Of a DNA stretch of 64,000 nucleotides, positions 13,609 through 37,018 are shown one piece after another. The stretch is from the NCBI GenBank assembly GCA_965221025.1, contig CBDCRJ010000001.1:197850-261849 (forward strand), read 5' to 3'. A model generated the notes under the pieces. The model did not search any database and was not told the DNA's origin. It worked only from the letters and a program-made list of their open reading frames with translations. Positions within the stretch are counted from its first letter, which is position 1. Each line of letters starts with the position of its first letter. A program made the translations under genes and the position numbers. The stretch comes from Dehalococcoidia bacterium. GTDB lineage: Bacteria > Chloroflexota > Dehalococcoidia > Lucifugimonadales > UBA3495.

Positions 13609-14616
13609 TTAGTAACGGGCCACTGCAAGAGCCCCCACTGCTACCGAAGGCAGACTTACGGGCAGTTGGTCCCAAGACTCGCCACGGTCCTCGCTACAGA
13701 ACAGTTTGCCGCCGTCGGTGCCAGCATAGACCCGGTCCGGCGATTGAGGGTCCCACTCGAAGGCCACCGCCATGTCCGAGGCATTCTCACCGTGACCCAA
13801 CGCCTCTACCAATTGCCAATTCCGTCCGCCGTTGGTGGAACGGTAGAACTGAGGGTCTTTCCGCCCGGCGTTGGCGGACACCGTGACCAACACCAAGTCC
13901 GCGTCGTCGGGAGCGGCCGCCAAGTGCAGAGTATAGCGCCGTTCCAGGCCGCTGTTTATTGACTCCCAGTGGTCTCCCCCGTCGTCGCTACGGAAGGGCG
14001 AGCTTGCCGTGGCAACGTACACCCGGTTGGGGCGGTCGGCGCTCAGGTTCACGCAATGGATGTCGTCGTCGAGACCCGGTAGTTGCTGCCAAGTAGCCCC
14101 AGCGTCCCGGGAGCGGACCATACCCCCCACTTCGATACCGGCGTAGAGGTGATTTGGGTCGTGGGGTGACGCCCGCAGGTCGCGGACATGGGAGTCGCGA
14201 GTCTCCGAGTGGAAAAACCACTGACTCGCTTCGGGGACGGCCCGGAAACCGTCGCGCTCCCGCCAACTGATTCCGCCGTCGTCAGACTGGAAGACAGCGG
14301 CCGGCTCGCTTCCCGCATAGACCGTTTCCGGTTTCGAGGGATGGGCCAGCACACTGTGGGCGTAGTCGCTGGGGTACGAATCCAGACGCCTCCAGACCAA
14401 TCCGGCATCGTCCGTGCGGTAGACACCGGCCTCATAGGCCGCCAGATAGGCGCGTTCCGGGCTAACCGGGCTTGCCGTCAGCCTCGCCGCGGCATGGGGC
14501 AGGCGGGTGATGGGCCCCTGTTGCCAAGTCTTACCGTCGTCCTCACTGCTAACGGTACACACCCCATCGTGCATACCCACATGGATTCGGCGGTGGTTCT
14601 TGTGGTGTTGCGACAT
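13609..14616 (-). CDS. BNR/Asp-box repeat beta-propeller protein
   Basis: Seven SxDxGxxW boxes (SEDDGKTW, TDDAGLVW, SDDGGISW, SRDAGATW, SDDGGDHW, STNGGRNW, SEDRGESW). ATG 14616 chosen (M30 of ORF 13609..14703). Confidence 0.75.
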   Translation of the reverse strand: MSQHHKNHRRIHVGMHDGVCTVSSEDDGKTWQQGPITRLPHAAARLTASPVSPERAYLAAYEAGVYRTDDAGLVWRRLDSYPSDYAHSVLAHPSKPETVYAGSEPAAVFQSDDGGISWRERDGFRAVPEASQWFFHSETRDSHVRDLRASPHDPNHLYAGIEVGGMVRSRDAGATWQQLPGLDDDIHCVNLSADRPNRVYVATASSPFRSDDGGDHWESINSGLERRYTLHLAAAPDDADLVLVTVSANAGRKDPQFYRSTNGGRNWQLVEALGHGENASDMAVAFEWDPQSPDRVYAGTDGGKLFCSEDRGESWDQLPVSLPSVAVGALAVARY

Positions 14617-14825
14617 GATGTCCCTGCCTTCGTTATGTCGAGTTCGCGTAGTCTCATAACGATTATATTCCAAACCGCGCTGTTCGGTCAGGGCGCAGCC
14701 CACAGGTCGTGTACCATTGATAGCTCAGGAGGAATCGAGGGGCCTCCCAATGGCCGCCCGTTAGAAACAAAAGGAAGTTCGCTCCTTTACGGAGTTCCGA
14801 CGGCGGGACTATCATTACCTGGCAA

Positions 14826-14902
14826 GGGTGGTTAGCTCAGTTGGTTAGAGCGCCTGCTTTACACGCAGGAGGCCGCAGGTTCGAGTCCTGCACCGCCCAC
14901 CA
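14826..14902 (+). tRNA. tRNA-Val (anticodon TAC)
   Basis: Hand-folded cloverleaf: acceptor gggtggt/accgccc (one GU), D-arm gctc-agttggtta-gagc, anticodon arm cctgc-ttTACac-gcagg, T-arm gcagg-ttcgagt-cctgc, discriminator A, encoded CCA. Confidence 0.9.
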
Positions 14903-14953
14903 GACTTGACGAAATCAAGAACCTTCAGCTTGAGGTTTACGCTGGACCTGTAG
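14895..14953 (+). repeat. DR1: tRNA-Val 3' end plus flank, repeated at 23485 and 30379 (degenerate copy near 37725)
   Basis: gcccaccagacttgaYRaaatcaagaacYttca... About 37/42 nt are identical to the copies at 23485 and 30379. Homology continues with one gap for roughly 60 nt. Confidence 0.65.
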
Positions 14954-15095
14954 TTAGGTGTAGGTGACGTGCTCGCCCGAGGAAGTGCGAGTGAACTCGA
15001 TAAGCCGGCCTTTCAGTTGTTGTTCGCCTTGCCTAGAGTTTCGGCCGACAGGGCCGATGGGCTGACCAATTTGAGGGATAGGGCCAATTCCTGAC

Positions 15096-17180
15096 CTACC
15101 GCAGGGCCTTGTTGATTGTCTTGATGAATTCCTTCCACTGAGTTCGTTCTACCTCGGTGAGGTCTGCTGCTTCATGTTCTCGTGTCCAGCGAAGGAAGGC
15201 CTTGGCGAGCCGGTACTTCGAGAAGGTCTCTTTGCCGATCTCCTTTGTGAAGATGTCAACAACTGGCCGTGCTGGTTGCCGACCGGCAGTCTCTTCGATG
15301 TCCCAACCCAGATCGGTCTTCGCTACATCTATGAGTGTGTCCCTGAGTAGGTCTTCGATCTCCGGGCCTTTAACGACTCCCGTGCAGGCGTCAGCCGTTC
15401 GGAGGATGTTCTTGTTGCCTAGGGTGTGGATTAGGGTTTCGACTCTGGCAGCAGCTTCACCAGCCGCGTCCGAGTCCAGCAAGGCCGCCACCTTGAGGTT
15501 GTTCGCGTGAAGAATAGTGGCGAAGTAGACCACCTTGCCGGCGTTGTTAGCTGGGATTAGCGCAATCTTGTCGTTGAGATCTGCCTCTCCCGCCGCCTTG
15601 AGAAGGGCCGCGGTCGCCTCAATGTACCAATAGTCGGTCAGACCCTCGAGAACCAGATTGCGCTCCTGCATGAAGAGGCTCTGGGCAAGGTCATAGCCGA
15701 GTGCCTCCTGGAGGGGAAGAAGCGCGGTTGAGTCACCGGCAGTGATCGTGGTGTGGACCTTAGTGCCGGTCGTTCGCTCCTTCATCTCGACGACCCGCAC
15801 CAAGTCGAGCTCGTCTGGCCCCACCATGAACGGCGAGTGGGTCGTGTACAGGAGCTGGTTGGTCTCGCCTAGGCGAGAAACGGTGGTACGGAACTCGCGC
15901 TGCTTTAACCCATGGAGACTCAGCCCAGGTTCGTCAAGCAGCAAGACGGCATTCTGATGGCTGTCAGCTGCTTCGGCAAAGAAAACGACAAAGAACGAAA
16001 CAAGCCACTGGAAGCCTTCAGAGCGCTGGTCCAGCTCGACTTCCACACCTAGCTCGTCCTCGACGACGACCTTGAGATACTGCTGGTCGGCTTCGACACG
16101 CAGACGATCAGCCTCGGCCTTTTTCGGGTCGGGCTGCCAAACCCTGTTGATGCTCTTGGTTAGCTGAATGCTCGCGGCGTTGAGTCTGTAGCTGCGTCTG
16201 TCGAGTTGGTCTTGGTAAGCTTTAAGGCCACTCTGGTCGCCCGCCCCAGGCTCGGCGGCTTTGCCTAGGTTGGAGAGCTCGCGCGCTTCAAAGCCAAGGA
16301 GTTTGAGCAGACACTGGTTTCCCCTGTCATATTGGTCGTCGTCTAGGACGTTCTGTTCTAGGCGGTCAGCGAGAAGGCCCAAGTGGAGTCTAGGGCGAAC
16401 TCTGAAGTAATTCGAGAAATACACAAAGACCGGCAGACGTCCACGGAGCAGCTTCAGGGCCTTTTCTGTTTTTTCGGACATCCTAGCCGCATTGGTCAAC
16501 CTATCGAGGCGTTCTTCCTCAAGCTCATTCTCCTCGTCAACTAGAGGAGTGACGCCATTCAGCCACTCCATGAGTGTAGTGGCTCGTTCTCCCGAGAGGC
16601 TGGATTCGTCGCCCCATTCAGCAACCATCGCATCCAGCTCTTGACGGTGGGATGTCTCAGAAGCCTCCTCCGCACCCGCAGTGACCTGTGCATCAAGGTG
16701 TGAAGCCAGCCGTAAGAGGTCCTTACGGATATCACCATATCTTGGGACCACTGGGCCGCCATCGATTCTATGCCAGAACTTATTGTCAAGGCGACGCCCG
16801 AACACATAAGTGCAGCCAGTAAAGCGCTCGTCTATCTGCGTGACCGCCTCTAGTTCATCGTCGTCAAGTCCGAAGTGCGCCTCCACTACAGTCACTTTGT
16901 CGGGTGTGATAGTTCCGCCGCCCGTCTTATCGAGTCTAAGATCACTAAGCTCAGACCGTGGAAAGTCGCGGAGTGGGTCAAAGTTTGGCACGCCGTTTGG
17001 TGGGTTAATTTGCTCAAGCGCTCTGAGCAGCACCGTCTTGCCAGCCTCGTTGGGGCCGACGATGATCGTCTTCATAGATTCGACATCGAACCATCCGCTG
17101 TCTCGGATACCCCGATATTTCTGTACACGGGCTTTCTGTAATTTCATTAGGCCACCATCCAAACTAAGAGGATAATCCAT
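15096..17180 (-). CDS. OLD-family nuclease (ABC-type ATPase + C-terminal Toprim)
   Basis: Walker A GPNEAGKT, Walker B LLLDEPGLSLH, TTHSPF, then Toprim LVLEGLTDYWYIE and ALLDSDAAGE. The start could instead be ATG 17147 (MKLQKARVQKYRGI). Confidence 0.85.
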   Translation of the reverse strand: MDYPLSLDGGLMKLQKARVQKYRGIRDSGWFDVESMKTIIVGPNEAGKTVLLRALEQINPPNGVPNFDPLRDFPRSELSDLRLDKTGGGTITPDKVTVVEAHFGLDDDELEAVTQIDERFTGCTYVFGRRLDNKFWHRIDGGPVVPRYGDIRKDLLRLASHLDAQVTAGAEEASETSHRQELDAMVAEWGDESSLSGERATTLMEWLNGVTPLVDEENELEEERLDRLTNAARMSEKTEKALKLLRGRLPVFVYFSNYFRVRPRLHLGLLADRLEQNVLDDDQYDRGNQCLLKLLGFEARELSNLGKAAEPGAGDQSGLKAYQDQLDRRSYRLNAASIQLTKSINRVWQPDPKKAEADRLRVEADQQYLKVVVEDELGVEVELDQRSEGFQWLVSFFVVFFAEAADSHQNAVLLLDEPGLSLHGLKQREFRTTVSRLGETNQLLYTTHSPFMVGPDELDLVRVVEMKERTTGTKVHTTITAGDSTALLPLQEALGYDLAQSLFMQERNLVLEGLTDYWYIEATAALLKAAGEADLNDKIALIPANNAGKVVYFATILHANNLKVAALLDSDAAGEAAARVETLIHTLGNKNILRTADACTGVVKGPEIEDLLRDTLIDVAKTDLGWDIEETAGRQPARPVVDIFTKEIGKETFSKYRLAKAFLRWTREHEAADLTEVERTQWKEFIKTINKALR

Positions 17181-17418
17181 CTCTTGGGGAGCAGGTCATA
17201 ACCGTTGGGGCTTCCGGTCAGGTACCGTTAGCTTGCCTCTCATCGCTCCCTAAATCTCCTCCTGGTAAATCCAATCGGCCAGGGGAGGAACCGCAAGTCA
17301 AGCAGGTCGAAGGATGCACAATGCAACTCCTTGCAGAGAATCAGATGAAGACCCCGTCGCAAGCACCCGAGAGTTCCCAGCTTCAGACCGGATCATTGCT
17401 TAGCATATTGCGCAGTCG

Positions 17419-18183
17419 TCAGTCGTAGCCTACGTCGGACGGAAGGAGTGGGCGCACCTGCTTTTCCCGAACCTCGCTTAGGGCGTAGTCCTTTAATAGA
17501 CCTACATCTGGGACATTGACAAACCCTGAAAATCTCTCACTGTTCTCATCGCCGATACGAATCAGGTCAGAGGAGGTGAGGGTTGAAATGCCTCCGGCCA
17601 CGGCTGAGCGCGACATGGCCGTTAGGCGGACGATGTCTCGCTGCCGAAGGGTGATCTCGCGTTCGCAACCGTGATCCTCTCCTCTCAGGGCGAGGCGGGA
17701 AATCAGGGCGGCCGCAACCCTCTGCGCCGGACTCCCGCTGATAGCGAGGGTGATCCAGTAGTAGCGCGCCAAACGCCTCAGCAAGACAAGATACATCTCG
17801 GAACGTATCTGAGGGATCCTTTCAACTGCGAGCCTCATGGTGGCGACTGGGATGGCTACTACGGTCGCCGGCGTGGCGGCCGAATAGGAGGCCACCCAGC
17901 GCTTCGCACCCATCATGAATTCGTGGTCGCCGATGAGGAAGGGGGAGGACAGGTCCGAATATGGATACTGCCAGGTCACGATCATTCCGTGTTGAACGAA
18001 GTACAGGTACGTGAAGGGCTCCCCCGACCGAATGAGCGCGATGTCAGCCGAGGGCTCGATGAACAGCATCTCCAATGGCTCCTGTCCACGAGAGAGAGCG
18101 TCCTCAAGCTCGACAGCATCGACAGACTGAAAGGCCTGACACCGCGCCAGTGCCTGGGCGAAACCGCCGATTTCAATTGCCAT
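17419..18183 (-). CDS. CRP/FNR-family regulator (cNMP-binding domain + C-terminal HTH)
   Basis: Beta-roll-like region FTYLYFVQHGMIV...FLIGDHEFMMGAKRWVASYSAATPATVVAIP, then HTH ITLRQRDIVRLTAMSRSAVAGGISTLTSSDLI. ATG 18183 chosen (M61 of ORF 17419..18363). Transcribed divergently from cap4. Confidence 0.75.
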   Translation of the reverse strand: MAIEIGGFAQALARCQAFQSVDAVELEDALSRGQEPLEMLFIEPSADIALIRSGEPFTYLYFVQHGMIVTWQYPYSDLSSPFLIGDHEFMMGAKRWVASYSAATPATVVAIPVATMRLAVERIPQIRSEMYLVLLRRLARYYWITLAISGSPAQRVAAALISRLALRGEDHGCEREITLRQRDIVRLTAMSRSAVAGGISTLTSSDLIRIGDENSERFSGFVNVPDVGLLKDYALSEVREKQVRPLLPSDVGYD

Positions 18184-18256
18184 TGCGGCTAACTCCCATT
18201 CATGCTGCCGCCATCTTAGCATACCAACGGGCATTTGTGAAGATGTTGACACGGCA

Positions 18257-18285
18257 TTGACTTTGTCTGCCAGAAGACATATGCT
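18257..18285 (+). promoter_or_regulatory. Candidate sigma70-type promoter for cap4 with an embedded inverted repeat
   Basis: TTGACT (18257-18262), 17-nt spacer, TATGCT (18280-18285). The spacer contains TGTCT-N6-AGACA (18264-18279). ATG of cap4 is at 18329. Confidence 0.4.
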
Positions 18286-18328
18286 AGTCCCGTAGCGACA
18301 TGCACAAGATGGACGAAGGCGATAGACA

Positions 18329-19855
18329 ATGAGAGCGGTTTCTGCTCGGCAACAGGGGGACACATACCAGGGACGCGTGTTCTGGCTAGAGGCTTGCCGC
18401 CTGTTCCAACGTCACACGAAAGTTGCAGGCGTTGGGTGCGAGATCGATGATGTCCCCCATTTCGACGATGTCGCTGTCGTCTACTCTGAGCCAATCAGGG
18501 ACGCCCACGGCGAGTTGGTCTCCGCCGACTACTATCAAATCAAATGGCACGTTGACCATGGCGGGGCGCTCACTTGCGACGCCCTGACGGACCCGTCCTT
18601 TATCGGCTCCAAGAGCACCTCACTCCTCCAGCGGCTGCATGAGGCCGTCAAGACGACATCGGCGAGAAACGAGACTGCAAGGTTCAACTTCATGACCACC
18701 TGGAGCATCCCCGCCGATGACGTCCTGGCGAAGCTAGTGAGTGGACGCGATGGGGAGTTGAGGCTCGATGTCCTCTTTGGTCAGGACACATCCGCTCGGT
18801 TCTCTCGGGTCATAGAGCGGTGGTCGCACGACCTGGGGGTGGGCCACGAGGAATTGCGAAGCGTGTTGGCCCGCCTGCGAATCTGTGCCAACTCTTACAG
18901 CCTCGATCATCTGACCAGGACACTGAGTGAGCATTTGGCGAGGGCCGGCTTCCGCGCAGTTGACCATGGCAGCCGAGCGAATCCATACGACAGCCTGATC
19001 GAACGTCTGCTCTCCGAGGGGCGGAGCAAGTTCACGGCACTGGAGATCCAGACCATCTGCAGCGAGGAAGGACTATGGACGGGCCCGGAATCGGACTGCG
19101 AGGCTCCCCTCGTCGGCATCAGGAGTTTCCTCCGGTTTGCTGAGCACATGGAAGACGAAGTTGACCACCTGTTGGACCTAGCAGGTCTGTTCGATGGTAG
19201 GGAGATTGGTGCACCAGAATACTGGAACACCAAAGTCGGCCCCAAGATACATGAGTTCATGACGAGGTCGGTCGCCCCCCTCGGTCAGTGCAATCTGTAC
19301 CTCTCCGCGCACAGCTCCATCGCTTTTGCGGCCGGGTACGAACTGGACCCTAAGTCCGGCACACGCGTCTCACTCGTCCAGAACACCGCCGCCGGTAGAT
19401 CGATTTGGGACTCCTCCTCCGTGACGGCGAGTCCCGACTCCAATCCCTGGAGGGTCTCAGGTATCAGTACGCACCCGAACGGTCGTGAAGTCGGCATCGT
19501 CCTGTCGGTAACCCATGACGCAAGCTCTGAGGTTCTGGCGCATGTTCAGGAGCACATCCCACAACTGGGCCACCTGCTTACCTTCACCATTTCGCCCGAT
19601 ATAGGCCCGATGGCAGTAAGGGACGGGGACCACGCGTGGATACTGGCACAGGAGTTGGTGAAGACCGTTCGGGAGCGGCATCCGAGGCACACCCCTACGG
19701 GTCCTTTGCACATATTCAGCGCTGCCCCAAATGGACTGGTTTTCCTCGTGGGGAGGCTTGCCCGTAGCCTCGGGCCCATACAGTTGTACGAGCACGACTT
19801 TGAGTCCAACTGGCCCTCTAGGTATCGGAAATCGCTCTCACTACCTATCGGATAG
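18329..19855 (+). CDS. cap4: CBASS effector Cap4-like: N-terminal PD-(D/E)xK endonuclease (DUF4297-like) fused to SAVED
   Basis: N-terminus GDTYQGRVFWLEA...CEIDDVPHFDDVAVVY...DYYQIKWH (D...QxK nuclease signature). The C-terminus LHIFSAAPNGLVFLVGRLARSLGPIQLYEH is typical of the SAVED end. Confidence 0.8.
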   Translation: MRAVSARQQGDTYQGRVFWLEACRLFQRHTKVAGVGCEIDDVPHFDDVAVVYSEPIRDAHGELVSADYYQIKWHVDHGGALTCDALTDPSFIGSKSTSLLQRLHEAVKTTSARNETARFNFMTTWSIPADDVLAKLVSGRDGELRLDVLFGQDTSARFSRVIERWSHDLGVGHEELRSVLARLRICANSYSLDHLTRTLSEHLARAGFRAVDHGSRANPYDSLIERLLSEGRSKFTALEIQTICSEEGLWTGPESDCEAPLVGIRSFLRFAEHMEDEVDHLLDLAGLFDGREIGAPEYWNTKVGPKIHEFMTRSVAPLGQCNLYLSAHSSIAFAAGYELDPKSGTRVSLVQNTAAGRSIWDSSSVTASPDSNPWRVSGISTHPNGREVGIVLSVTHDASSEVLAHVQEHIPQLGHLLTFTISPDIGPMAVRDGDHAWILAQELVKTVRERHPRHTPTGPLHIFSAAPNGLVFLVGRLARSLGPIQLYEHDFESNWPSRYRKSLSLPIG

Positions 19856-19884
19856 GGAGCAAAACCCAACAAAGGAGCAGAAGG

Positions 19885-21006
19885 ATGGAATTGAACAGCT
19901 ACTTCACGGACTTTCTCAGCAAGATCAGGCCGACGGAGGCCCAGACCAAGGAATTGCAGGAGGCTCACACGCGCCTGCGAGAAAGACTGCTGGCCGACGA
20001 ATACCTCGGCCCCATGATCGTCAGCGTGTTCTTGCAGGGGAGCTATCGGAGGTCGACGTCCATTCGCCCTCAGGGGGACGACAAGCTGGACGTGGACTTG
20101 GTCGCCGTTACACGATTCCGCCGCCAAGACTACCCGGTGGCAGACGACGTGATGAAAGAGTTCGCTTCCTTCCTGAACAAGCACTACAAGGGCAAGTGGA
20201 AGAGGAAGGGACGGTCCATCGGCATAGAGATGTCCAAGGTGAAGCTCGATCTGGTGATCGCGGCGGCACCCTCGGAAGAAGAACCTTGGTCCTCCGATTT
20301 CATCCAGGGGCACTTCACGCCTGACGACTGGCCAATGGACTCTGATGCCTTGCCCAAGTATCTTGCTGATTTCTTCAAAGACCACCGCACGGGAGAACCA
20401 CAGTGGAAGCAGGAGCCTCTCTACATCCCTGACAGGGACACCCATGAATGGCAGCGCACCCATCCCCTGGAACAGTACGGGTGGACCACCAACAAGAACA
20501 GGCGCACGAACGGTCATTTCGTCAACATTGTGAGGTTGGTCAAGTGGTGGTGGAGAACGGCGCATCCCGAACTCGAATATCCGAAGAGCTATCCTCTGGA
20601 GCATTTGGTCGGCGACTGCTGCCCAGACAATGTTGAGAACCTGGCGCAGGGATTCACCCTTGTACTTGAGAAGATGGTCTCCACGTACTCGGCATACGCG
20701 GCTGCAGGGATGGTTCCGTTCGTTCCAGACCGAGGAGTTCCCGAGCACAACGTACTCAAGCGACTGTCTTCAAGTGACTTCTCAAAATTCGTTGACCGTG
20801 TCCAGAACGCCTCTGGTGTGGCGCGGAAGGCCTTGGAGTCGGGCGATTCGTCGGAGAGCGCGAACCTGTGGCAATCGCTTTTGGGTAAGAGGTTCCCGTC
20901 CCCTTCAGGTGGATCATCGGCAGCGGCGGCCGGAGCTGCAGCGGGGACTGCCGGGTTCACACCTCGCCGAGAGCCGACGCGCGTTGGAGGGGGAAGATTC
21001 GCCTAG
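19885..21006 (+). CDS. cdn: CD-NTase (SMODS-family cGAS/DncV-like nucleotidyltransferase)
   Basis: FLQGSYRRSTSIRP (GS motif), DVDLVAV (DxD) and KLDLVIAA (third Asp). Ala/Gly-rich tail ending GGGRFA. AAGGAG lies upstream of the ATG. Confidence 0.85.
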   Translation: MELNSYFTDFLSKIRPTEAQTKELQEAHTRLRERLLADEYLGPMIVSVFLQGSYRRSTSIRPQGDDKLDVDLVAVTRFRRQDYPVADDVMKEFASFLNKHYKGKWKRKGRSIGIEMSKVKLDLVIAAAPSEEEPWSSDFIQGHFTPDDWPMDSDALPKYLADFFKDHRTGEPQWKQEPLYIPDRDTHEWQRTHPLEQYGWTTNKNRRTNGHFVNIVRLVKWWWRTAHPELEYPKSYPLEHLVGDCCPDNVENLAQGFTLVLEKMVSTYSAYAAAGMVPFVPDRGVPEHNVLKRLSSSDFSKFVDRVQNASGVARKALESGDSSESANLWQSLLGKRFPSPSGGSSAAAAGAAAGTAGFTPRREPTRVGGGRFA

Positions 21007-21044
21007 CTTCTTGCCACGACCGATCGCTTACTGAGTCCCTCCGC

Positions 21045-22823
21045 GTGGGTCGCAGAGCCTTGGAGTCGGTGCCGGGCATAAAGATGCTGGGGGACTTCGC
21101 CTGGCACGAAGACCGAGCGCTCTGGGCTCTTCACTGCAGGATCGCCGCGGACGTTGAGTCGGGAGGTCTTATACCTCGTACAACCGACTGGTACATCCAT
21201 GTCCGCGATACATACCCGTTCGGTCAAGTCATCTTCTACCCGGCGAAGGTCGGGGGTGTAACGCACACGTTCTATCACCAGAATCACAATGGAGCCGGGC
21301 CCAACGAATTGCCGTGGAGATGTGGACGTCTGTGTGTCGACACAAGCCTTCGCACTCTGGGTCGGCGGTCCTACGATGTCGAGCCGTTCGATCCGGAATC
21401 CAGGCTCGCCTGGCATGTCCGCCGAGTACAGGAGTGGCTTGGCCTAGCGTCACGAGGCGAGCTGGTCCATCTTGGCAACCCCTTCGAGTTGCCACATATT
21501 CCCTTTTCCTCCGGTCCCAAGGTTATCTTCGCCGAGGGACCCGAGAATCTTTCCTTCTGGTTGGGGCGGCACCCGCGTAAGGGCACTGCGAGTGTCCGAA
21601 TCCTAGAGGAAGACCCACCAATTCTCGTGGTGGACGACCTGAACGTGGGCAAGTCTGGAGTAGATATCCAGGCCCCCTGGACCAAACCTCTCGGTAAGGA
21701 AAGCGATCTTGGCGTGGCGTGGATCTGGCTCGACCAGCTACCAGTAGTCGCTCCATGGGCGATACCAACAACATGGGGACAGCTCCGAATGTGCTGCAGG
21801 GCACAGGGGGTTGATCTTGACTCCTTGTTGAGGCCGTTATGCGGCAACCTCAGGGACGGGAAGAGGCATGTTCTGCTTGTTGGATTTCCCGTCCCGGCCA
21901 GAGTTCAGGAACCTGATGCCCAGGTTCACTGGCTCGCGCTCTGGCTCCCGCCCCTGACCTCACGGCCGTTACCTGGATTTCGCCCCACGGAGTCAGGCTA
22001 CTGGAGCCGAGACCGATCGCTGGCATTCGGAGACAGTGTGCCTCTGGAATGGCTTGAGACCGAGAATTGGCACCAGGATGAGATATCAGGCCGGGGGAGG
22101 GTGAATCCATCGGTACGGTCAAAGTCTATTGTGATCATCGGTGGTGGCGCGGTTGGCTCGGTGCTGGCCGAAATCTTAGTCCGCTCAGGCGTCCAGGATG
22201 TGACGATCATGGACCACGACCGCCTGAAAGTTGGCAACCTCGTCAGGCACACTCTTGGAGTTAGCCACCTGGATAAGCCGAAAGCTCGGAATTTGGCAGA
22301 CCGCCTCGATGATGCAGCGGTCCATTCCGTCGTAACTCCCATAGATGCTGCATTTCCCCCGACTGACCGCAAGGACATCAATCGTGTTCTGAACGCCGAT
22401 GTCGTCATCGACTGTACGGCAGACGACTCCGTTGCGGAGCATATGCGTAGGTTCGCTTGGGACGGACCCGTTACCTTCGTGTCGGTATCAGTTGGCTTGA
22501 AGGCGAGGCGAGCGTTCACCTACGTGGCGCACAGCAACACCTTCCCGGCCGACGACTTCGCAAATAGGCTGGATCCCTGGCTCCGATCTGAAATGGATGG
22601 ATACGATGAGGAGTTGCCGCGGGATGGCACAGGGTGTTGGCATGCGCTGATGCCGGCGCGGATCGATGACATCTGGATAATGACCGGGGCGGCTGTAAAG
22701 ACCATAGGATCCGCAATCGCCGAGCCTCCGAGTGAACCCACTCTGGTCGTATTTGAGCAGCAGTACGAGAATGGTGAATTCGTTGGGCTACGTAGAGTGT
22801 CCGCACCCGACGCCATCTCCTAA
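21045..22823 (+). CDS. cap2: Cap2 (E2-like + E1/ThiF-like fusion)
   Basis: E2-like HQNHNGAGPNELPWRCGRLCVDT (HxN...C), then E1 Rossmann IVIIGGGAVGSVLAEILVRSGVQDVTIMDHDRLKVGNLVRH. GTG 21045 or ATG 21084 as start. Confidence 0.85.
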   Translation: MGRRALESVPGIKMLGDFAWHEDRALWALHCRIAADVESGGLIPRTTDWYIHVRDTYPFGQVIFYPAKVGGVTHTFYHQNHNGAGPNELPWRCGRLCVDTSLRTLGRRSYDVEPFDPESRLAWHVRRVQEWLGLASRGELVHLGNPFELPHIPFSSGPKVIFAEGPENLSFWLGRHPRKGTASVRILEEDPPILVVDDLNVGKSGVDIQAPWTKPLGKESDLGVAWIWLDQLPVVAPWAIPTTWGQLRMCCRAQGVDLDSLLRPLCGNLRDGKRHVLLVGFPVPARVQEPDAQVHWLALWLPPLTSRPLPGFRPTESGYWSRDRSLAFGDSVPLEWLETENWHQDEISGRGRVNPSVRSKSIVIIGGGAVGSVLAEILVRSGVQDVTIMDHDRLKVGNLVRHTLGVSHLDKPKARNLADRLDDAAVHSVVTPIDAAFPPTDRKDINRVLNADVVIDCTADDSVAEHMRRFAWDGPVTFVSVSVGLKARRAFTYVAHSNTFPADDFANRLDPWLRSEMDGYDEELPRDGTGCWHALMPARIDDIWIMTGAAVKTIGSAIAEPPSEPTLVVFEQQYENGEFVGLRRVSAPDAIS

Positions 22824-22830
22824 CCTCACC

Positions 22831-23283
22831 ATGTGCTCCCCCGATGGGCGTTTTCGCGTCCAAGTTGGGTATCACCAGTTGGAGGCTCTATTGGATGTGT
22901 GCCGCGAGTCCGGCGACTTGGAGACCGGCGGGGTCCTCGTTGGTCGGTACAACGAGGCGCACGACACCGCGATAGTGACACGGGTATGGGGTCCGCCAGG
23001 AGACTCCGTCAGGAGGCGGACCAGCTTTTGGAGAGGAACCCAAGGCCTGCAACAGCAACTTGACGCCTTGTGGAAGTCCAGGGAATACTACCTTGGTGAA
23101 TGGCATTATCATCCCCGAGGAGCCGGTCAACCCAGCAATGGGGACAAACAGCAGATGGTCCGGATTGCCGAATCGCTTGATTACAACACTCCGGAGCCCG
23201 TGCTCATAGTGGTCGGTGGATCGGACTGGGAAGTGCTGGGCCACGTGTTCCCGCGGCACGGCACAGCCATTGGGCTTGTCTAA
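22831..23283 (+). CDS. cap3: Cap3 (JAB/JAMM isopeptidase)
   Basis: ETGGVLVG plus HYHPRGAGQPSNGD, an exact E...HxHx7Sx2D JAMM motif. ATG 22831 lies 8 nt after the cap2 stop. Confidence 0.85.
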   Translation: MCSPDGRFRVQVGYHQLEALLDVCRESGDLETGGVLVGRYNEAHDTAIVTRVWGPPGDSVRRRTSFWRGTQGLQQQLDALWKSREYYLGEWHYHPRGAGQPSNGDKQQMVRIAESLDYNTPEPVLIVVGGSDWEVLGHVFPRHGTAIGLV

Positions 23284-23621
23284 ACTTAAGCGAAGAATCC
23301 TCGGCAGGCCCTCACCCACCTCGCGTCGGCTACTGCGTGCTCAGCAACGAGCAACCATGAGGCCTTAGTGGGTTCAGAGGCTGCCGAACGACACCTGGAG
23401 GATGGTACCGTGTCTAGCGTCCTCAACCGACCTACAAAGCCCCAAGCCACAATTCGAAGACGGTTCTGTCTATCGTCAAAATAGGCCCACCAGACTTGAT
23501 AAAATCAAGAACTTTCACCCTGCGGGTCAGGTTGGCGCTGTAACCGACGCCTGCCTTGCCCCGGCGTCGGCCCGCCGGGAAACGGCAAATCAGGCCGACA
23601 GGTAACGTACCAAGCAGCGAC

Positions 23622-23658
23622 GAGGCCCCTGCTGTAACGGCGGGGGCCTCTGGTTTGT
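23622..23658 (+). terminator. Intrinsic-terminator-like hairpin (module A)
   Basis: gaggcccctgctg / cggcgggggcctc stem (about 13 bp with wobbles), followed by tggtttgt. Conserved in all three full modules. Confidence 0.5.
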
Positions 23659-23839
23659 CTCAGACCGCCGCTGCCATTTCGACGCTCGCGGCTACGTCCC
23701 GCGGGCTCCCCGCCATTCCCCGGCCGTCAGTCGATGGGAGTCCCGTTGAGCGCCCACGCCGCTTCCTGAACATGCTGGGCTAAGACCTGACGCGACATGG
23801 GCATAGGCGCCTGGTAGTCATTTGCCTATGCAATCACTG

Positions 23840-23874
23840 TAGACAAATGTCTAGTGCAAAATAGACATTTGCAC
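23840..23874. promoter_or_regulatory. Paired palindromes TAGACAAATGTCTA and GTGCAAA-ATAGACA-TTTGCAC (operator candidates)
   Basis: TAGACA-AA-TGTCTA at 23840-23853. A 7-bp inverted repeat around ATAGACA lies at 23854-23874. The same arrangement occurs in modules C and E, and a variant at 35571. Confidence 0.55.
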
Positions 23875-24157
23875 CTTACGTCCGGCTTGGAAGCTCACTA
23901 CGATTTACGTTGGCGAGGGCTGCTTTTCGAGCGGCCAGCCTTGTCATGGGCGCCGAAAACCCAGGCAATCATCCGACGTTGGGCGAGAGGAGCGATGACC
24001 AGTACCGATAGACGAGGAATCCCAATCCTCGACGGAGCAGAGACATCCGTCGCAGCAGCCCGCGTTGCCGTGGTCTCCGCGACCCGGTCCGCCCCCCATT
24101 CGATGAAAGGTCAACCGAAGAGGAGTTAGCAAGGTTCCACTTAGGGAAGTTAAGGAC

Positions 24158-27100
24158 GTGAAAGCAATGTCGAAGTCAATCATTGGTCTGGTGCTGAGCA
24201 TCGCGGTTCTCGCCATCCTGCTAATCGGGTGTTCCGATGAGCCAGAGCCCATTCCTTCAAACGGGGCCGATTCCAGCACCACCGCCCCATCGGAGCAGGG
24301 GGTCAATCCTGAGCCAACACATGCTCCCACATCGGCTGTGACAAACACCGACGCATCAGAAGCTGCAATTCCCACACCTGCCGCTCTCCCGACCGCCACT
24401 GCAACGCCCGCAGCCACGGCGACTCCGTTACCCACTGCCATGCCAAGGCCGCAGCCGACTCCCAAGCCCACGACGACACCGGCACCAACATCCGCCGCAT
24501 CAGAAGCTGCAATTCCCACACCTGCCGCTCTCCCGACCGCCACTGCAACGCCCGCAGCCACGGCGACTCCGTTACCCACTGCCATGCCAAGGCCGCAGCC
24601 GACTCCCAAGCCCACGACGACACCGGCACCAACATCCGCACCGACACCTACTCCTACACCAACGCCGACACTAACGCCAACGCCGGAACCCACTCCTGCG
24701 CCGACGCTCACACCAACGCCGACACTAACGCCAACGCCGGAACCCACTCCTGCGCCGACGCCCCTCCCAAGGGCCACGACGATTACGCTGACACCCGGAA
24801 TGGCGATGCTGGAGGCCCCGGACGAGACGGCTCACCTGGCGGTGGTGGTCCGCGACCAGAACGGCCGGGTCATGACCGGAGTACCGGTGACGTGGGCCAG
24901 CAGCGACGAGCGGACTGCTCAGGTGGATGCAGAGGGCCGGGTCATGGCCGTTGCCGGGGGGTCAGCGACGATCACCGCAAGGGCAGGCGAGGCGTCGGGG
25001 ACCTCCCAGGTCATGGTCGTTGACATGGATTGGGCCGCCGGTTTCGTAGCCCGCCAGCATGTGGTTGACGCTGTTACGGGCTTCTCCGGACGTGTTGACC
25101 CGGACTGCACGGCGGTGGACTGTGAACGTGCCCGGTTCCCGGGCGATGGTTCAGGCAACTTCGGGACCTTCAAGGCAGTCACCGGCATCGATCTGGCAGT
25201 GGACAGCACAGGCAGGAGTGGCCTGTCCGGGATGATCCGAAGGCGGGATGCGTTCGACTCCGGAAGGTATGCCAACGGCAAGGTGGTCCGAACCTACGCG
25301 GACATAGAGGCCGCGCACGCCGACGGCAAATTGGCCGTCATGTTCTATGTGCAGCGTCGGCCCGAGTCCTCCGACTGGCAACTGGACGGAGACGTCGCGA
25401 ACCTGCGGCGCTGGTACGACGAAGGCTTGAGAATTCTGCAGGTGTCATACGGCGATGGCCCCGAAAGGCCGGACGCGACCTCTCTCGACGAACGGCTTGG
25501 TTACGGAACTTACGGGCCCCATGAGGGGGAGGAAAAAGGAGTTACCGCTCTCGGCCGTGCCGCCATCGCCGAGATGAACGCCATGGGCATGATCGTCGAC
25601 TGCTCGCATTGCAGCAAGCAGACCACGCTGGATGCGGCAGCCCTGTCCACCAAGCCCGTTATTGCGACGCACGCCAACGCTGAGGCACTTACCCCGCGAA
25701 TACGGAACAAGGACGACGACGAGTTGCGTGCCATCGCCGGCACGGGAGGCGTAATCGGGGTTACGTGCATCCGGTGGATGCTCGACACGGACGGCGACGG
25801 GAAAGCGGGTATGTCCGACATGATCGCCCACATTGAGTACATAGCGGAACTCGTGGGCATAGACCACGTGGGAATCTCCTCCGACTCGGACGTGAATGGA
25901 TGGCCGCAGGAATCGGTGCACTATGCGGACGCCGACATTGCCGCTCCGGACCGCTGGGTGCGGCTCACCGCCCAACTCCGCGCTAGGGGTTGGAGCGAGG
26001 AGGACCTGGCAAAGCTGCTGGGCGGCAATTTCCTGAGGGTCTTCGCCGAGGTGCTCCCCACAAGAGGCGCGAAGGGCAGGGAACCGGAATCTATGCCCCC
26101 TAACTTCAAGGTAGCCTTCATTGGGGACCAGGGGCTAGGCCGTGGTTCTGGGGCGGTCTTGGAAATGATACGAGAGGAAGGGGCGGATATGGTGCTGCAC
26201 TCGGGCGATTTCGACTATGACGACGACCCCGACCGCTGGGACCAACAAATCAATGAAACCCTCGGTGATGACTTTCCTTACTTCGCTTCCATCGGCAATC
26301 ACGATGTTCCTGCCTGGGAAGGTTACCAGAGGAAGTTACAGGAGAGGTTGGCTCGAATCAGCGGGGCCCGTTGCACAGGCGATCTGGGAGTAAATTCCTT
26401 CTGCACATTTGAGGGGTTGTTCTTTGTGCTTTCCGGCGTAGGCACCATTGACTCGGGCCGCGTCTCCTTCATAAGTGAAGCCCTTGGGTCCGAGGAGGCA
26501 AAGGAGTCCCTCTGGCGAATCTGCTCATGGCACAAGAACCAGAGGCTGATGCAAGTCGGGGGAAAGAAAGATTCGGTCGGATGGGAGCCTTACGAAGAGT
26601 GCCGGAAGGGCGGGGCGATCATAGCTACGGGCCACGAGCATTCTTATTCACGCACACACCTAATGGATAGTTTTCGGACCCAGAGCATCGCTTCCAAGTC
26701 GGCCGTCTTGAACGTTGACAATGGAAAGAGCTTTGCCTTTGTCTCCGGTCTTGCGGGACGCAGCATCAGAGGTCAGGACGATCAGCTCGCCGCCAAACCC
26801 TGGTGGGCGGCGGTGCATACTTCGGCGCAGGGAGCAAATCATGGCGCGTTGTTTTGCGTCCTCAACCACGAAGGAGTTGAAAATCGAGGATATTGCTACT
26901 TCAAAGACTTGAATGAAGTCAATCCCGACGCGTTTGGGGTCATTGTGGGGCCGACTGCTGAAATTCCTGAGGCATCATCATTCGTGCCGACGGCGAGTCC
27001 GAAGCGGGAGGTGGAGTACGACTATATCATAGAGTTGCCGGACGACTGGATCCAGAAAGGCGAGGACAGGTACAGCAGCCCCTCGCCCCGAGTCTCGATA

Positions 27101-27466
27101 ATTATTACATCTCACAGGTTCGGAGGTGACATTGACCAGTACATCCAACAGGTGCAAGACAATCTGAAAGAGGACTGGGAGGACTGGTGGTTTACGACTT
27201 CACTATTCGAGACCACTTCCGTAGATAGGGAAATTACGGACGAACAGACGACAATCCGTATGCGGTACCGGGTGCAGGAGGCCGAATACTGTGTCCTTGA
27301 CGTTGTCGATGTCGTGCTGGTATCCCAAATCGTTCCGGGAGACCCGCAGGTATTTAGAATACGGGCGTGGATGTGCGAGCGAAACGTTGCCAGCCGTGGC
27401 CAGATGAGGGATGACGTACTGAACAGTTTTGAGGTGATAACTAGGCCCATAAACGGCGGAAGTTAA
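24158..27466 (+). CDS. Multidomain lipoprotein A: PT-rich linker, Big_2, M19 (renal-type) dipeptidase, metallophosphoesterase, C-terminal unknown domain
   Basis: Lipobox LLIGC. Big_2-like [46 protein letters not shown]. Dipeptidase [32 protein letters not shown]. Phosphoesterase [32 protein letters not shown] 24167 is the likelier start (AAGGA upstream). Confidence 0.85.
24353..24640 (+). repeat. Near-perfect 144-bp tandem duplication inside the PT linker
   Basis: Unit gcatcagaagctgcaattccc...aacatccgc at 24353 and 24497 (48 aa each). Only the last base differs by my reading. Confidence 0.9.
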
Positions 27467-27567
27467 TTTTTCCGTGCGGGCGGGTAGCCGCTGACATTGG
27501 GTGGACGCAAATTGGGCCACCCGCCGCCTTACGTAAGGCTGACTACCAGCAACGGCGGGTGAGACGG

Positions 27568-27639
27568 ATGTATCCGGTGGAACTGTACACACGGGCTCGT
27601 CGGGCAGTGATGGTGGAGGGGATGAGCCATCGGAAAGCG
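27568..27639 (+). pseudogene. Possible transposase N-terminal HTH remnant
   Basis: [24 protein letters not shown] resembles the Y..ElR.RAV..V.eG.S.RkaA start of IS630/IS3-type transposase HTH domains. No continuation of a transposase follows. Confidence 0.3.
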
Positions 27640-27765
27640 CACCGCAGCAGAGACATCCGTGGCAGCGGCCCGTGTTGCCGTGAGCTCCGCGCCCCGGTCC
27701 GCCTCCCATTCGACAAAGGTCAAGTGATGAGAGCTAGCAGGATTCAACTCAGGGAAGTTGAGGAC

Positions 27766-30069: not shown

Positions 30070-30515
30070 ACGGTGGAAGTGTCTTAGACATCGTAATACG
30101 GCTTCCGGACCACCCGCAGGCCTTGCCTCGCATTGAGCATTGCGCCTGACCGAGTTTACTCGGCACCCGAGGCCACGTCTGCTGCGGAAGGTGGGACATG
30201 CAGTCTGTCTTGCTGTCCATGTTCTTCCGTCAACCACGAGTACAGGGCCTCGGTAGGCTCATAGACTCCCCACCCACAGTTCGAGGCGGGTTCTGTCAGA
30301 TCATTACTAGAGATAGTATCGTCGTTCGCAGAATGCCCAGCCACATCTCGAATATGGTGCCATCTACCGTCCACTCAGGCCCACCAGACTTGATAAAATC
30401 AAGAACTTTCACCCTGCGGGTCAGGTTGGTGCTGTAACCGACGCCTGCCTTGCCCCGGCGTCGGCCCGCCGGGAAACGGCAAATCAGGCCGACAGGTAAC
30501 GTACCAGGCAGCGAC

Positions 30516-30552
30516 GAGGCCCCTGCTGTAACCGCGGGGGCCTCTGGTTTGT
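30516..30552 (+). terminator. Intrinsic-terminator-like hairpin (module C)
   Basis: gaggcccc...ggggcctc followed by tggtttgt. Lies about 450 nt downstream of the lipoprotein B stop. Confidence 0.5.
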
Positions 30553-34051: not shown

Positions 34052-34064
34052 CGGGAGGGCATAG

Positions 34065-35048: not shown

Positions 35049-35053
35049 GACGG

Positions 35054-37017: not shown

Positions 37018-37018
37018 A

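What the first reader, a model, noticed from the sequence alone, without database searches (positions are those of the whole stretch)
17419..18328. CRP/FNR-type cNMP-binding regulator between a type II CBASS operon and an OLD nuclease
Seen in sequence: a 254-aa protein with a cyclic-nucleotide-binding-like beta-roll plus a C-terminal HTH. It is transcribed divergently from cap4, across a 145-bp shared control region. It lies 238 bp upstream of, and on the same strand as, an OLD-family ATPase-Toprim nuclease. Established knowledge: the CBASS regulators I know of are CapW (WYL) and CapH/CapP, and cNMP-binding domains act as signal sensors in Pycsar effectors. I know of no CRP-like partner for either CBASS or OLD. 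The phosphate-binding signature is atypical (KRWVAS rather than R-S/T-A), so cAMP need not be the ligand. Inference: the protein could couple a nucleotide second messenger, either the CD-NTase product or a host signal, to transcription of CBASS and/or OLD. Alternatively it could form a two-gene module with OLD.
Basis: partly seen in the sequence, partly recalled or inferred. Interest (0 to 1): 0.75.

Follow-up and report, generated by a model that had tools for sequence, protein, structure and literature searches.

The report
CRP-fold regulator docked to CBASS operons
A small, previously undescribed family of CRP/FNR-shaped DNA-binding proteins in Dehalococcoidia bacteria sits, with a conserved promoter cassette, in front of many different anti-phage (mainly CBASS) operons, so it is probably a new kind of switch for bacterial immunity genes.

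Summary
Window 17419-18183 (-) encodes a 254-aa protein that is divergent from cap4 across 145 bp and lies 238 bp upstream of an OLD-like gene. Sequence similarity to cNMP-binding domains is sub-threshold, but an AlphaFold model (pLDDT 84.6) matches CRP/FNR regulators over its full length.

The family is tiny: 83 hits among 1.84 billion representative proteins, all Chloroflexota/Dehalococcoidia. Among 51 loci whose regulator is at least 57% identical, 27 carry a complete CBASS on the divergent strand and 6 a CBASS remnant. These cover at least four architectures, of types II and III. OLD recurs in 0 of 80 loci.

In the window's clade the whole intergenic region is conserved whichever CBASS follows it. 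The palindrome TGTCT-N6-AGACA fills the -35/-10 spacer of the CBASS promoter, which suggests repression.

More distant paralogues (49-56% identity) flank a defence hotspot beside conjugation genes. Their neighbours are RM, Gabija, Pbe and Hma systems. The pocket and recognition-helix residues are conserved in all clades, so the CD-NTase product is an unlikely ligand.

In the window, OLD, the regulator and CBASS form an 8.6-kb island bounded by direct repeats at tRNA-Val.

Verdict: a new CRP-fold analogue of CapW/BrxR; its function is inferred, not shown.

The parts
17419..18183 (-). Regulator gene ('REG'), 254 aa. Predicted layout: N-terminal beta-roll (residues ~38-112), long helix 124-146, and a C-terminal winged HTH whose recognition helix is ~192-204 (MSRSAVAGGI).
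   Evidence: Translation; AlphaFold model; Foldseek hits to CRP, GlxR, Clr, NtcA and FNR; hhalign aligns SRSAVAGGI with CRP SRETVGRIL.
18184..18328 (.). 145-bp divergent control region. It is conserved as a unit in the window's clade whether a Cap4-type or a TIR-SAVED-type CBASS follows it.
   Evidence: Alignment of 18 loci; upstream listing.
18213..18241 (-). Predicted promoter of the regulator: TTCACA-17-TAAGAT with an extended-10 TG.
   Evidence: Promoter scan; TGCTA and the -10 are conserved.
18257..18285 (+). Predicted promoter of the CBASS operon: TTGACT-17-TATGCT.
   Evidence: Promoter scan. The -35 TTGAC and positions T1, A2 and T6 of the -10 are invariant or nearly invariant in 18 loci.
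18264..18279 (.). Perfect palindrome TGTCTGCCAGAAGACA (TGTCT-N6-AGACA). It has CRP-box geometry (TGT-N10-ACA) and fills the 17-nt spacer of the CBASS promoter. It is the candidate operator.
   Evidence: It is the only exact copy in 64 kb. TGT-N10-ACA sits at the same offset (start 95-99 nt before the ATG) in 19 of the 21 clade-I loci plus the window, with conserved arms and a variable centre. Background is 0.02 sites per 200 nt. TGTC-N8-GACA is the top palindrome in clade I.
18329..19855 (+). Cap4-type effector (endonuclease-SAVED).
   Evidence: Pfam SAVED 1.8e-27; PADLOC Effector/SAVED_PDDEXK 1.7e-152.
19885..21006 (+). CD-NTase.
   Evidence: Pfam SMODS 4.6e-26; PADLOC Cyclase 5.3e-134.
21045..22823 (+). 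Cap2 (E1/E2).
   Evidence: PADLOC E1-E2 1.7e-193; Pfam ThiF.
22732..23283 (+). Cap3 (JAB deubiquitinase-like). The true start is probably downstream of 22732.
   Evidence: Pfam Prok-JAB 2.4e-11; PADLOC JAB 5.8e-43, matching residues 34-170.
15096..17180 (-). OLD-like ATPase-Toprim gene. It is co-cargo of the same island and not a conserved partner of the regulator.
   Evidence: PADLOC Old 7.6e-22; Pfam AAA_15 and AAA_21, with OLD-like_TOPRIM sub-threshold. No homologue in 80 related loci.
14826..14902 (+). tRNA-Val (TAC); the island lies at its 3' end.
   Evidence: ARAGORN; Rfam tRNA 74.8 bits.
14895..14952 (+). Left direct repeat: the last 8 nt of tRNA-Val plus 50 nt.
   Evidence: the repeat finder family D19; alignment.
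23485..23542 (+). Right direct repeat (79% identical). It closes the 8.6-kb OLD-REG-CBASS island. A third copy lies at 30379-30436.

Best explanation
The gene encodes a dimeric CRP/FNR-fold transcription factor. It belongs to a small family, confined to Chloroflexota, that is dedicated to mobile defence islands.

In the window's clade the regulator, its own promoter and the promoter of the divergent operon form one conserved cassette, and different CBASS operons are found attached to it. The protein most likely binds the 16-bp palindrome TGTCT-N6-AGACA. This site occupies the spacer between the -35 and -10 of the CBASS promoter, so binding would keep the abortive-infection operon repressed. 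An unknown small-molecule or physiological signal, sensed by the beta-roll domain, would change its DNA binding.

The ligand is probably not canonical cAMP and probably not the CD-NTase product. OLD is only a neighbouring cargo gene of the same 8.6-kb tRNA-Val island.

Shown: the fold, the recurrent divergent linkage to CBASS, conservation of the cassette, and the position of the palindrome. Inferred: DNA binding at that site, repression, and ligand control.
For: Fold:
- AlphaFold model with pLDDT 84.6.
- The listed Foldseek hits are all CRP/FNR regulators, aligned over the full length.

Linkage:
- 27 complete and 6 degraded CBASS among 51 loci with a regulator at least 57% identical. All are on the divergent strand; except in one IS-disrupted locus (L087), the first CBASS gene ends 145-433 bp from the regulator's start.
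- At least four CBASS architectures are involved, including type III.
- The identical regulator plus CBASS occurs with different downstream flanks (L083 versus L084).
- The other flank is variable.

Cassette:
- The 145-154-bp intergenic region aligns across Cap4-type and TIR-SAVED-type loci, and homology breaks just inside the cargo 5' UTR.
- Two back-to-back promoters are predicted.

Operator:
- The palindrome at 18264-18279 is unique in the window.
- Its arms are conserved and its centre is variable, and it lies inside a promoter spacer, which sigma-70 contacts do not explain.
- The recognition-helix residues R186, T188, S191, R192, S193 and V195 are at least 97% conserved.
- SRSAVA aligns with CRP SRETVG. 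This keeps the Arg that, by my recollection of CRP-DNA structures, contacts the G of TGT.

Precedent: CBASS and other defence systems are known to carry dedicated repressors, namely CapW (PMC9122588), BrxR (PMC9122601) and CapH/CapP (bioRxiv 10.1101/2022.04.27.489752).
Against: - There is no experimental evidence; everything rests on association and sequence.
- The clade-I loci are homologous to one another, so conservation of the palindrome is not independent evidence. Its right arm is AGACA in only about half of them.
- No shared palindrome was found upstream of clade-II or clade-III regulators, although the recognition helix is conserved.
- In the 49-56% identity clade the conserved upstream sequence stops at the regulator's own -10. 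The cargo lies in either orientation, and the fixed neighbour is a conjugation module. That fits a backbone gene next to a hotspot better than a cargo regulator.
- One lineage (P0085, 72% identical) keeps an intact regulator beside an MFS transporter with no defence genes.
Confidence: 0.55

Rival explanations
1. The protein is a backbone regulator of an integrative (conjugative or mobilisable) element. It controls its own expression or element functions such as transfer or excision, and it merely borders a cargo-insertion hotspot where defence systems accumulate. It does not regulate CBASS.
For: - In 28 of 33 loci of the 49-56% identity clade, the regulator is followed by small genes (a 178-aa protein, HTH_3) and then a conjugation module. 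That module comprises a Replic_Relax relaxase-like gene, a TrwB/TraG coupling protein, a VirB4-like ATPase, a PrgI-like gene and a T4SS pilin.
- There are 3-4 such copies per genome.
- The upstream cargo is highly varied: Pbe, HKD-Snf2, Hma, types I, IIG and III RM, Gabija, PD-Lambda-4 and HEC-05. It lies in both orientations.
- The window itself has a relaxase-like gene at 41473-43185 and a serine recombinase at 46653-48404.
- The P0085 lineage keeps the gene without any defence cargo.
Against: - In the window's clade no conjugation gene is a fixed neighbour. The only constant partner is CBASS, at constant spacing, and the cargo promoter is part of the conserved cassette.
- In the window (and similarly in L006) the regulator-CBASS unit sits in an island of about 8.6-8.7 kb that has no transfer genes.
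Confidence: 0.27
2. The beta-roll binds the cyclic oligonucleotide made by the adjacent CD-NTase (or another defence nucleotide). That would give feedback control of CBASS transcription.
For: - The fold resembles a cNMP-binding domain.
- The atypical phosphate-binding cassette suggests a non-cAMP ligand.
- From my own knowledge, some CRP-like proteins bind cyclic dinucleotides, for example Xanthomonas Clp with c-di-GMP.
Against: - The pocket-region residues are at least 97% conserved across clades whose neighbours are RM, Gabija, Pbe or Hma systems, which make no nucleotide signal.
- They are also conserved across CBASS with different cyclase models and effectors (PDLC00822 versus PDLC00810; Cap4 versus TIR-SAVED; type II versus type III).
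- An intact regulator persists where CBASS has decayed or is absent.
Confidence: 0.07
3. The regulator forms a functional two-gene module or operon with the downstream OLD nuclease.
For: The two genes are on the same strand, 238 bp apart, within the same repeat-bounded island. One relative (L010) has an AAA_15/AAA_21 ATPase directly downstream.
Against: - tblastn finds no OLD homologue in any of the 80 related loci.
- None of the Pfam-annotated metagenome loci has an AAA_15/Toprim gene next to the regulator.
- About 190 nt after the regulator's stop codon are shared with L006, and then the cargo differs: OLD here, a 170-aa protein plus an HNH protein there.
Confidence: 0.03

Closest known systems
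CapW / BrxR (wHTH-WYL-WCX defence-associated repressors; PMC9122588, PMC9122601, PMC11662680)
   Same: Both are stand-alone transcription factors encoded next to the operon, usually divergently. Both co-localise with CBASS and with many other defence systems and islands. In both cases a palindromic site overlaps the defence promoter, and a ligand-sensing domain is fused to an HTH.
   Different: The fold is unrelated: a CRP/FNR beta-roll, dimerisation helix and wHTH, with no WYL or WCX domain. CapW senses ssDNA, whereas the signal here is unknown. This family is restricted to Chloroflexota, and part of it is anchored to a conjugative-element backbone.
CapH/CapP (HTH repressor plus metallopeptidase module of CBASS; bioRxiv 10.1101/2022.04.27.489752)
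   Same: Both are CBASS-associated transcriptional control modules placed upstream of the operon.
   Different: The known module has two proteins and is released by proteolysis. Here there is a single protein with a ligand-type sensor domain and no peptidase partner.
CRP/FNR superfamily regulators (E. coli CRP, M. tuberculosis CRP, GlxR, Clr, NtcA, CprK, FNR)
   Same: The three-part fold is the same over the full length. The SR motif in the recognition helix is shared. The candidate 16-bp palindrome has CRP spacing (TGT-N10-ACA).
   Different: - Sequence similarity is below family thresholds.
- phmmer against 1.84 billion representatives returns only 83 proteins, so the family is detached from the bulk of CRP/FNR proteins.
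- The phosphate-binding cassette is shortened (KR-WVAS).
- There is no FNR Cys cluster.
- The candidate site lies in a repressor position rather than at -41.5 or -61.5.
- The family is local and attached to defence islands, not a global regulator.
DdvS/DdvA ECF sigma / anti-sigma control of a CBASS-CRISPR island in Myxococcus (PMC11506125)
   Same: Both are dedicated local transcriptional control of a defence island that contains CBASS.
   Different: The mechanism (sigma factor versus repressor-type transcription factor) and the proteins are entirely different.

Membership tests
CRP/FNR superfamily of transcription factors | N-terminal eight-stranded beta-roll (cNMP-binding-like) domain | tested here: met
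   The AlphaFold model has strands across residues 38-112. The listed Foldseek PDB hits are CRP, GlxR, Clr, NtcA and FNR, with probability 1.00. Pfam PF00027 is only sub-threshold (18.9 versus 27.5 bits).
CRP/FNR superfamily of transcription factors | Long central dimerisation helix followed by a C-terminal winged HTH | tested here: met
   The model has helix 124-146 and an HTH at 181-204. Foldseek alignments span 210-251 columns, including the DNA-binding domain. hhalign aligns MSRSAVAGGI with CSRETVGRIL. There is no Pfam HTH_Crp_2 hit. Dimerisation itself was not tested.
cAMP-binding CRP proper | Phosphate-binding cassette G-E...R-[ST]-A, with an invariant Arg and Ser/Thr contacting the cyclic phosphate | tested here: not met
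   The sequence is G85-D-H-E...K94-R95-W96-V97-A98. The Ser/Thr-Ala is absent. R95 is C or H in some homologues, whereas W96 is invariant.
FNR-type oxygen sensors | Cluster of four Cys ligands for an Fe-S centre | tested here: not met
   Only one Cys is conserved (C15).
CRP/FNR superfamily of transcription factors | Binds a palindromic site made of two 5-bp half-sites | tested here: inconclusive
   The candidate TGTCT-N6-AGACA is conserved in clade I. No shared site was found in clades II and III.
CapW/BrxR (WYL) regulators | wHTH plus WYL plus WCX domains | tested here: not met
   There are no WYL hits in Pfam, PADLOC or NCBIfam, and the fold is CRP-like.
CapH/CapP | XRE-type HTH repressor paired with a Zn-metallopeptidase gene | tested here: not met
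   No peptidase gene lies between OLD and cap4, and the regulator is not XRE-type.
Type II CBASS (the neighbouring operon) | CD-NTase plus Cap2 (E1/E2) plus Cap3 (JAB) plus a SAVED-linked effector | tested here: met
   SMODS, ThiF/E1-E2, Prok-JAB and SAVED endonuclease, all with strong PADLOC scores.
OLD-family nucleases (the downstream neighbour) | N-terminal ABC-type ATPase plus C-terminal Toprim | tested here: met
   PADLOC Old 7.6e-22, covering 404-581. Pfam AAA_15 and AAA_21 are above threshold, while OLD-like_TOPRIM scores 20.6 against a 23.2-bit cut-off.

The most novel reading that the evidence does not exclude
This would be a new, ligand-gated class of immune regulator built on the CRP fold. 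A conserved 'regulator + promoter + operator' docking cassette is carried by Chloroflexota islands and conjugative elements, and unrelated defence operons are swapped into it: CBASS types II and III, ubiquitin-like conjugation systems and possibly others. One small-molecule signal of infection or physiological state would then switch on whichever immune system is plugged in.
Probability: 0.3. Interest if true: 0.75.

Novelty: new variant of a known kind. Interest (0 to 1): 0.6.

Why it matters
How toxic abortive-infection systems are kept silent and then switched on is known for only a few regulator types: WYL (CapW/BrxR), CapH/CapP and one ECF sigma pair.

A third, structurally unrelated family has a small-molecule-type sensor domain and recurs in front of at least four CBASS architectures. 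That suggests transcriptional gating of CBASS has evolved repeatedly. It also offers a tractable protein with which to ask what signal Chloroflexota use to license immunity.

The family gives two practical handles. First, its gene marks defence islands and a conjugative-element cargo hotspot in poorly studied Dehalococcoidia/SAR202-type genomes. Second, unknown operons that occupy the 'CBASS slot' are candidate new defence systems, for example the 260-aa + 177-aa pair and the c20-E1-E2-JAB-patatin set.

Tried and rejected
1. OLD partnership: tblastn of the OLD protein against 80 related loci gave no hit. Rejected.
2. Single-copy housekeeping regulator: rejected. Several genomes hold 3-4 copies, and the flanks are mobile or defence genes.
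3. Universal operator: a search for palindromes shared by clades II and III (half-sites of 4-5 nt, spacers of 2-12 nt) and a scan for TGTC-N8-GACA over all loci found enrichment only at the clade-I promoter. A TGTAGTC...ACA variant recurs 140-163 nt upstream of the ATG in five clade-II loci, but I could not establish it.
4. RNA elements: Rfam at E <= 0.1 over 14000-24500 found only the tRNA. The 196-nt stretch after the regulator's stop codon folds no better than shuffled sequence (z = 0.84).
5. Homologues on plasmids or phages: none.
6. Sequence-only assignment to CRP: the PDB phmmer best hit has E 0.04, and hhalign against E. coli CRP gives E 0.08. These are not significant on their own, so the fold assignment rests on the structure search.
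7. Literature: three searches for a CRP/FNR-type regulator of CBASS or of defence islands found none. The library is incomplete, so this is absence of evidence only.
8. Integrase inside the island: none between the direct repeats.
Full report
**1. What is in the window**

The ORF at 17419-18183 on the minus strand encodes 254 aa. It starts at ATG 18183, behind a GGGAG ribosome-binding site. All homologues begin at the same Met.
- It is divergent from a type II CBASS operon across 145 bp. The operon comprises Cap4 SAVED-nuclease (18329-19855), CD-NTase (19885-21006), Cap2 E1/E2 (21045-22823) and Cap3 JAB (22732-23283).
- It lies 238 bp upstream of an OLD-like ATPase-Toprim gene at 15096-17180 on the same strand.

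**2. Fold**

Sequence evidence for a cyclic-nucleotide-binding domain is weak.
- Pfam PF00027 scores 18.9 bits, below its cut-off of 27.5.
- No HTH_Crp_2, NCBIfam or PADLOC family matches.
- The best PDB sequence hit has E 0.04.
- hhalign against E. coli CRP gives E 0.08.

Structure settles the question. An AlphaFold2 model built on 26 homologues has pLDDT 84.6 and pTM 0.73. It shows a beta-roll, a long helix (124-146) and a C-terminal HTH. All the listed Foldseek PDB hits are CRP/FNR-type regulators aligned over 210-251 columns. They include T. thermophilus CRP, GlxR, M. tuberculosis CRP, Clr-cAMP-DNA, NtcA, CprK and FNR, with E down to 2e-11.

hhalign aligns KR--WVA with CRP ERSAWVR, so the Ser-Ala is missing. 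R95 is not invariant, whereas W96 is. There is no FNR-type Cys cluster.

**3. Size and spread of the family**

phmmer against 1.84 billion 50%-identity representatives returns only 83 proteins, many of them fragments. The 5.8-billion-sequence search returns 394 proteins, and the 120 listed are 60-99% identical and mostly about 252-254 aa. Genome hits are nearly all Dehalococcoidia/Chloroflexota MAGs. None occurs in the plasmid or phage collections. The family is therefore a small, sharply delimited offshoot of the CRP/FNR fold.

**4. Neighbourhood survey**

I fetched 80 genome loci and 15 metagenome loci. I then called and clustered the neighbouring ORFs, annotated cluster representatives and mapped the cargo onto a regulator tree.

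Three results follow.

(a) OLD is never a neighbour elsewhere: 0 of 80 loci.

(b) The regulator is strongly linked to CBASS. classifies the 51 loci whose regulator is at least 57% identical to the window's:

| Divergent upstream neighbour | Loci |
|---|---|
| CD-NTase plus a SAVED effector | 27 |
| CBASS remnant or contig-end fragment | 6 |
| Ubiquitin-like conjugation genes (multiubiquitin/ThiF, or c20 + E1-E2-JAB + patatin) | 4 |
| Neither | 14 |

Some of these loci are redundant copies of the same lineage. The CBASS operons have several architectures:
- Cap4-CD-NTase-Cap2-Cap3;
- TIR-SAVED-CD-NTase-short Cap2;
- CD-NTase-Cap2-Cap3-SAVED;
- a type III operon with HORMA and a Trip13-like AAA ATPase.

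Regulators 90% identical to each other head different CBASS types (L001 versus L002). The identical regulator plus CBASS also occurs with different downstream flanks (L083 versus L084). The far sides of these loci carry further defence genes: GmrSD, RM/Mrr, SIR2-HerA, Dnd-like and AIPR-Z1-DUF4420.

(c) In the more distant clade (49-56% identity; 3-4 copies in some genomes) the fixed neighbour is a conjugation module. In 28 of 33 loci the regulator is followed by a 178-aa protein and an HTH_3 protein. The module beyond them comprises a Replic_Relax relaxase-like gene, a TrwB/TraG coupling protein, a VirB4-like ATPase, a PrgI-like gene and a T4SS pilin. Upstream of the regulator the cargo varies and lies in either orientation. 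It includes:
- PbeA/PbeC and HKD-Snf2;
- HmaC;
- type I, IIG and III RM;
- Gabija;
- PD-Lambda-4 and HEC-05;
- a DpdF/GajB-like helicase;
- CBASS, in two loci.

In that clade the gene looks like a backbone gene bordering a defence hotspot of a conjugative element.

**5. The control region**

The consensus scan finds two back-to-back promoters:
- TTGACT-17-TATGCT (18257-18285, +) for CBASS;
- TTCACA-17-TAAGAT with an extended-10 TG (18241-18213, -) for the regulator.

The perfect palindrome TGTCTGCCAGAAGACA (18264-18279) occupies 16 of the 17 spacer nucleotides of the CBASS promoter. It is the only exact TGTCT-N6-AGACA in 64 kb.

In an alignment of 18 loci of the window's clade, the whole 145-154-bp region is conserved whether a Cap4-type or a TIR-SAVED-type operon follows. 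Homology breaks shortly after the predicted cargo transcription start. Within the spacer the arms are conserved (TGTC invariant or nearly so; ACA nearly so), while the central six bases vary freely. That is the pattern of a dimeric operator rather than of a promoter spacer.

TGT-N10-ACA, the geometry of the CRP box, occurs at the same offset in 19 of the 21 clade-I loci plus the window. The background is 0.02 sites per 200 nt. These loci are homologous to one another, so the count is not a set of independent observations. A site centred near -23 is a repressor position.

The recognition-helix residues (R186, T188, S191, R192, S193, V195) are at least 97% conserved across the whole family. Nevertheless I found no shared palindrome in the other clades. 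That discrepancy remains unexplained.

**6. The ligand**

The residues around the would-be pocket (G85, H87, E88, W96, Y100, S101, A102) are at least 97% conserved in all three clades. They stay the same next to CBASS with different cyclases and effectors. They also stay the same next to RM, Gabija, Pbe and Hma systems, which make no nucleotide signal. An intact regulator persists where CBASS has been broken by IS elements (P0041 lineage) or is absent (P0085 lineage beside an MFS transporter). In the latter, a degenerate TGTCTAATAACAGTCA remains upstream. Sensing of the CD-NTase product is therefore unlikely. A general cellular signal is more plausible, but nothing here identifies it.

**7. 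Island context in the window**

A 58-nt sequence that starts in the last 8 nt of tRNA-Val (14895-14952) recurs at 23485-23542 (79% identity) and again at 30379-30436. OLD, the regulator and CBASS thus form an 8.6-kb island bounded by direct repeats, with no integrase inside.
- L006 has a comparable 8.7-kb unit bounded by 68-nt repeats beside tRNA-Ala. It contains CBASS, the regulator and two other genes (a 170-aa protein and an HNH-like protein) where the window has OLD.
- The first ~190 nt after the regulator's stop codon are shared between the window and L006 before the cargo diverges.
- In L009 the regulator abuts tRNA-Met.

OLD is therefore co-cargo in a second variable slot, not a partner.

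**8. Interpretation**

The best-supported reading (confidence about 0.55) is as follows. This is a CRP-fold, probably ligand-responsive, local transcription factor. In the window's clade it forms a conserved regulator-promoter-operator cassette that controls the divergent CBASS operon, most likely by repression.

The main rival (about 0.27) is that it is a mobile-element backbone regulator that merely borders a cargo hotspot. That is what the distant clade looks like. The two readings may be stages of one history.

Feedback sensing of the CBASS signal (about 0.07) and an OLD module (about 0.03) are poorly supported.

**9. Comparison with known systems and novelty**

Functionally the closest known systems are the WYL regulators CapW/BrxR, which co-localise with CBASS and many other defence systems (PMC9122588, PMC9122601, PMC11662680). 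CapH/CapP is also comparable (bioRxiv 10.1101/2022.04.27.489752). The protein belongs to neither family, because it has no WYL/WCX domain and no peptidase partner.

By fold it is a member of the CRP/FNR superfamily. It fails the cAMP-cassette criterion of CRP proper and the Cys-cluster criterion of FNR.

Literature searches found no CRP-type defence regulator. I rate it a new variant of a known kind, namely defence-associated local regulators. Interest is moderately high, and no function has been demonstrated.

Noticed in passing
window 14895-14952, 23485-23542, 30379-30436: A 58-nt imperfect direct repeat begins in the last 8 nt of tRNA-Val. The first two copies bracket an 8.6-kb island (OLD, regulator, CBASS) with no integrase. 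The third copy suggests tandem accretion of a second ~6.9-kb unit.
   Followed up: partly
window ~23400-41200: Units of about 7 kb are repeated. They share 300-nt upstream segments at up to 90-91% identity, a 75-aa ORF present three times (23556, 30450, 37789) and a shared lipoprotein-like N-terminal sequence. They encode large secreted proteins: Big_2 + M19 dipeptidase + metallophosphatase, CarboxypepD_reg, and RCC1-repeat proteins of 998, 708 and 203 aa.
   Followed up: partly
window 41473-43185 and 46653-48404: There is a Replic_Relax relaxase-like protein with an N-terminal wHTH and a large serine recombinase. The relaxase-like protein clusters with the relaxase of the conjugative elements that carry the distant regulator paralogues. 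The window has no coupling protein or VirB4, so this may be a mobilisable-element remnant.
   Followed up: partly
L024:8409-9755, L025, L026:302-1090, L027 (divergent from the regulator): A two-gene operon of unknown function (about 260 aa and about 177 aa) occupies the slot that holds CBASS in sister loci. Neither protein has a PADLOC or significant Pfam hit. It is a candidate new defence system.
   Followed up: partly
L033:1866-6582, L034, L070, L022, L075: An operon sits in the CBASS slot and comprises a 376-aa protein, an E1-E2-JAB fusion (about 740 aa) and either a patatin phospholipase or a 252-275-aa protein. The 376-aa protein has no SMODS hit and only weak LmuA/Avs1a/MBL-type PADLOC hits. 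It is either a CBASS-like system with an unrecognised cyclase or a different ubiquitin-like conjugation system.
   Followed up: partly
L017:8871-9593, L011:8334-9521, L031:7729-9150: Close regulator homologues that lack CBASS are instead divergent from multiubiquitin and/or ThiF-type E1 genes (Bil/Bub-like operons). This suggests a bias of this regulator clade toward systems with ubiquitin-like conjugation machinery.
   Followed up: partly
protein P0121 (586 aa): A regulator homologue (56% identity over residues 2-248) carries a ~340-aa C-terminal extension of unknown function. It may be a true fusion or a gene-calling read-through.
   Followed up: no
L091-L094 (P0085 lineage), regulator at L091:7001-7759: An intact regulator (72% identical) sits between an MFS transporter and Pyridox_ox_2/HAD/MFS genes, with no defence genes within 7 kb. 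A degenerate operator-like TGTCTAATAACAGTCA remains upstream. This is either an orphaned regulator or one re-used for another purpose.
   Followed up: partly
window 18236-18251 (-) and 18293-18331 (+): A second TGT-N10-ACA (TGTCAACATCTTCACA) overlaps the regulator's own -35 but is not conserved in relatives. Separately, a short upstream ORF (MHKMDEGDRQ*) ends in ATGA overlapping the cap4 start codon. Its inner ATG (start of MDEGDRQ*) is retained in L001 and L008 but lost in other Cap4-type loci such as L006.
   Followed up: no
L037-L079 (e.g. L063:10949-20690): Dehalococcoidia genomes carry 3-4 copies of a conjugative-element module. It comprises a relaxase-like gene, a coupling protein, a VirB4-like ATPase, a PrgI-like gene and a pilin. 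Each copy has a different defence cargo next to the regulator paralogue, which looks like an uncharacterised family of integrative conjugative elements in this class.
   Followed up: partly
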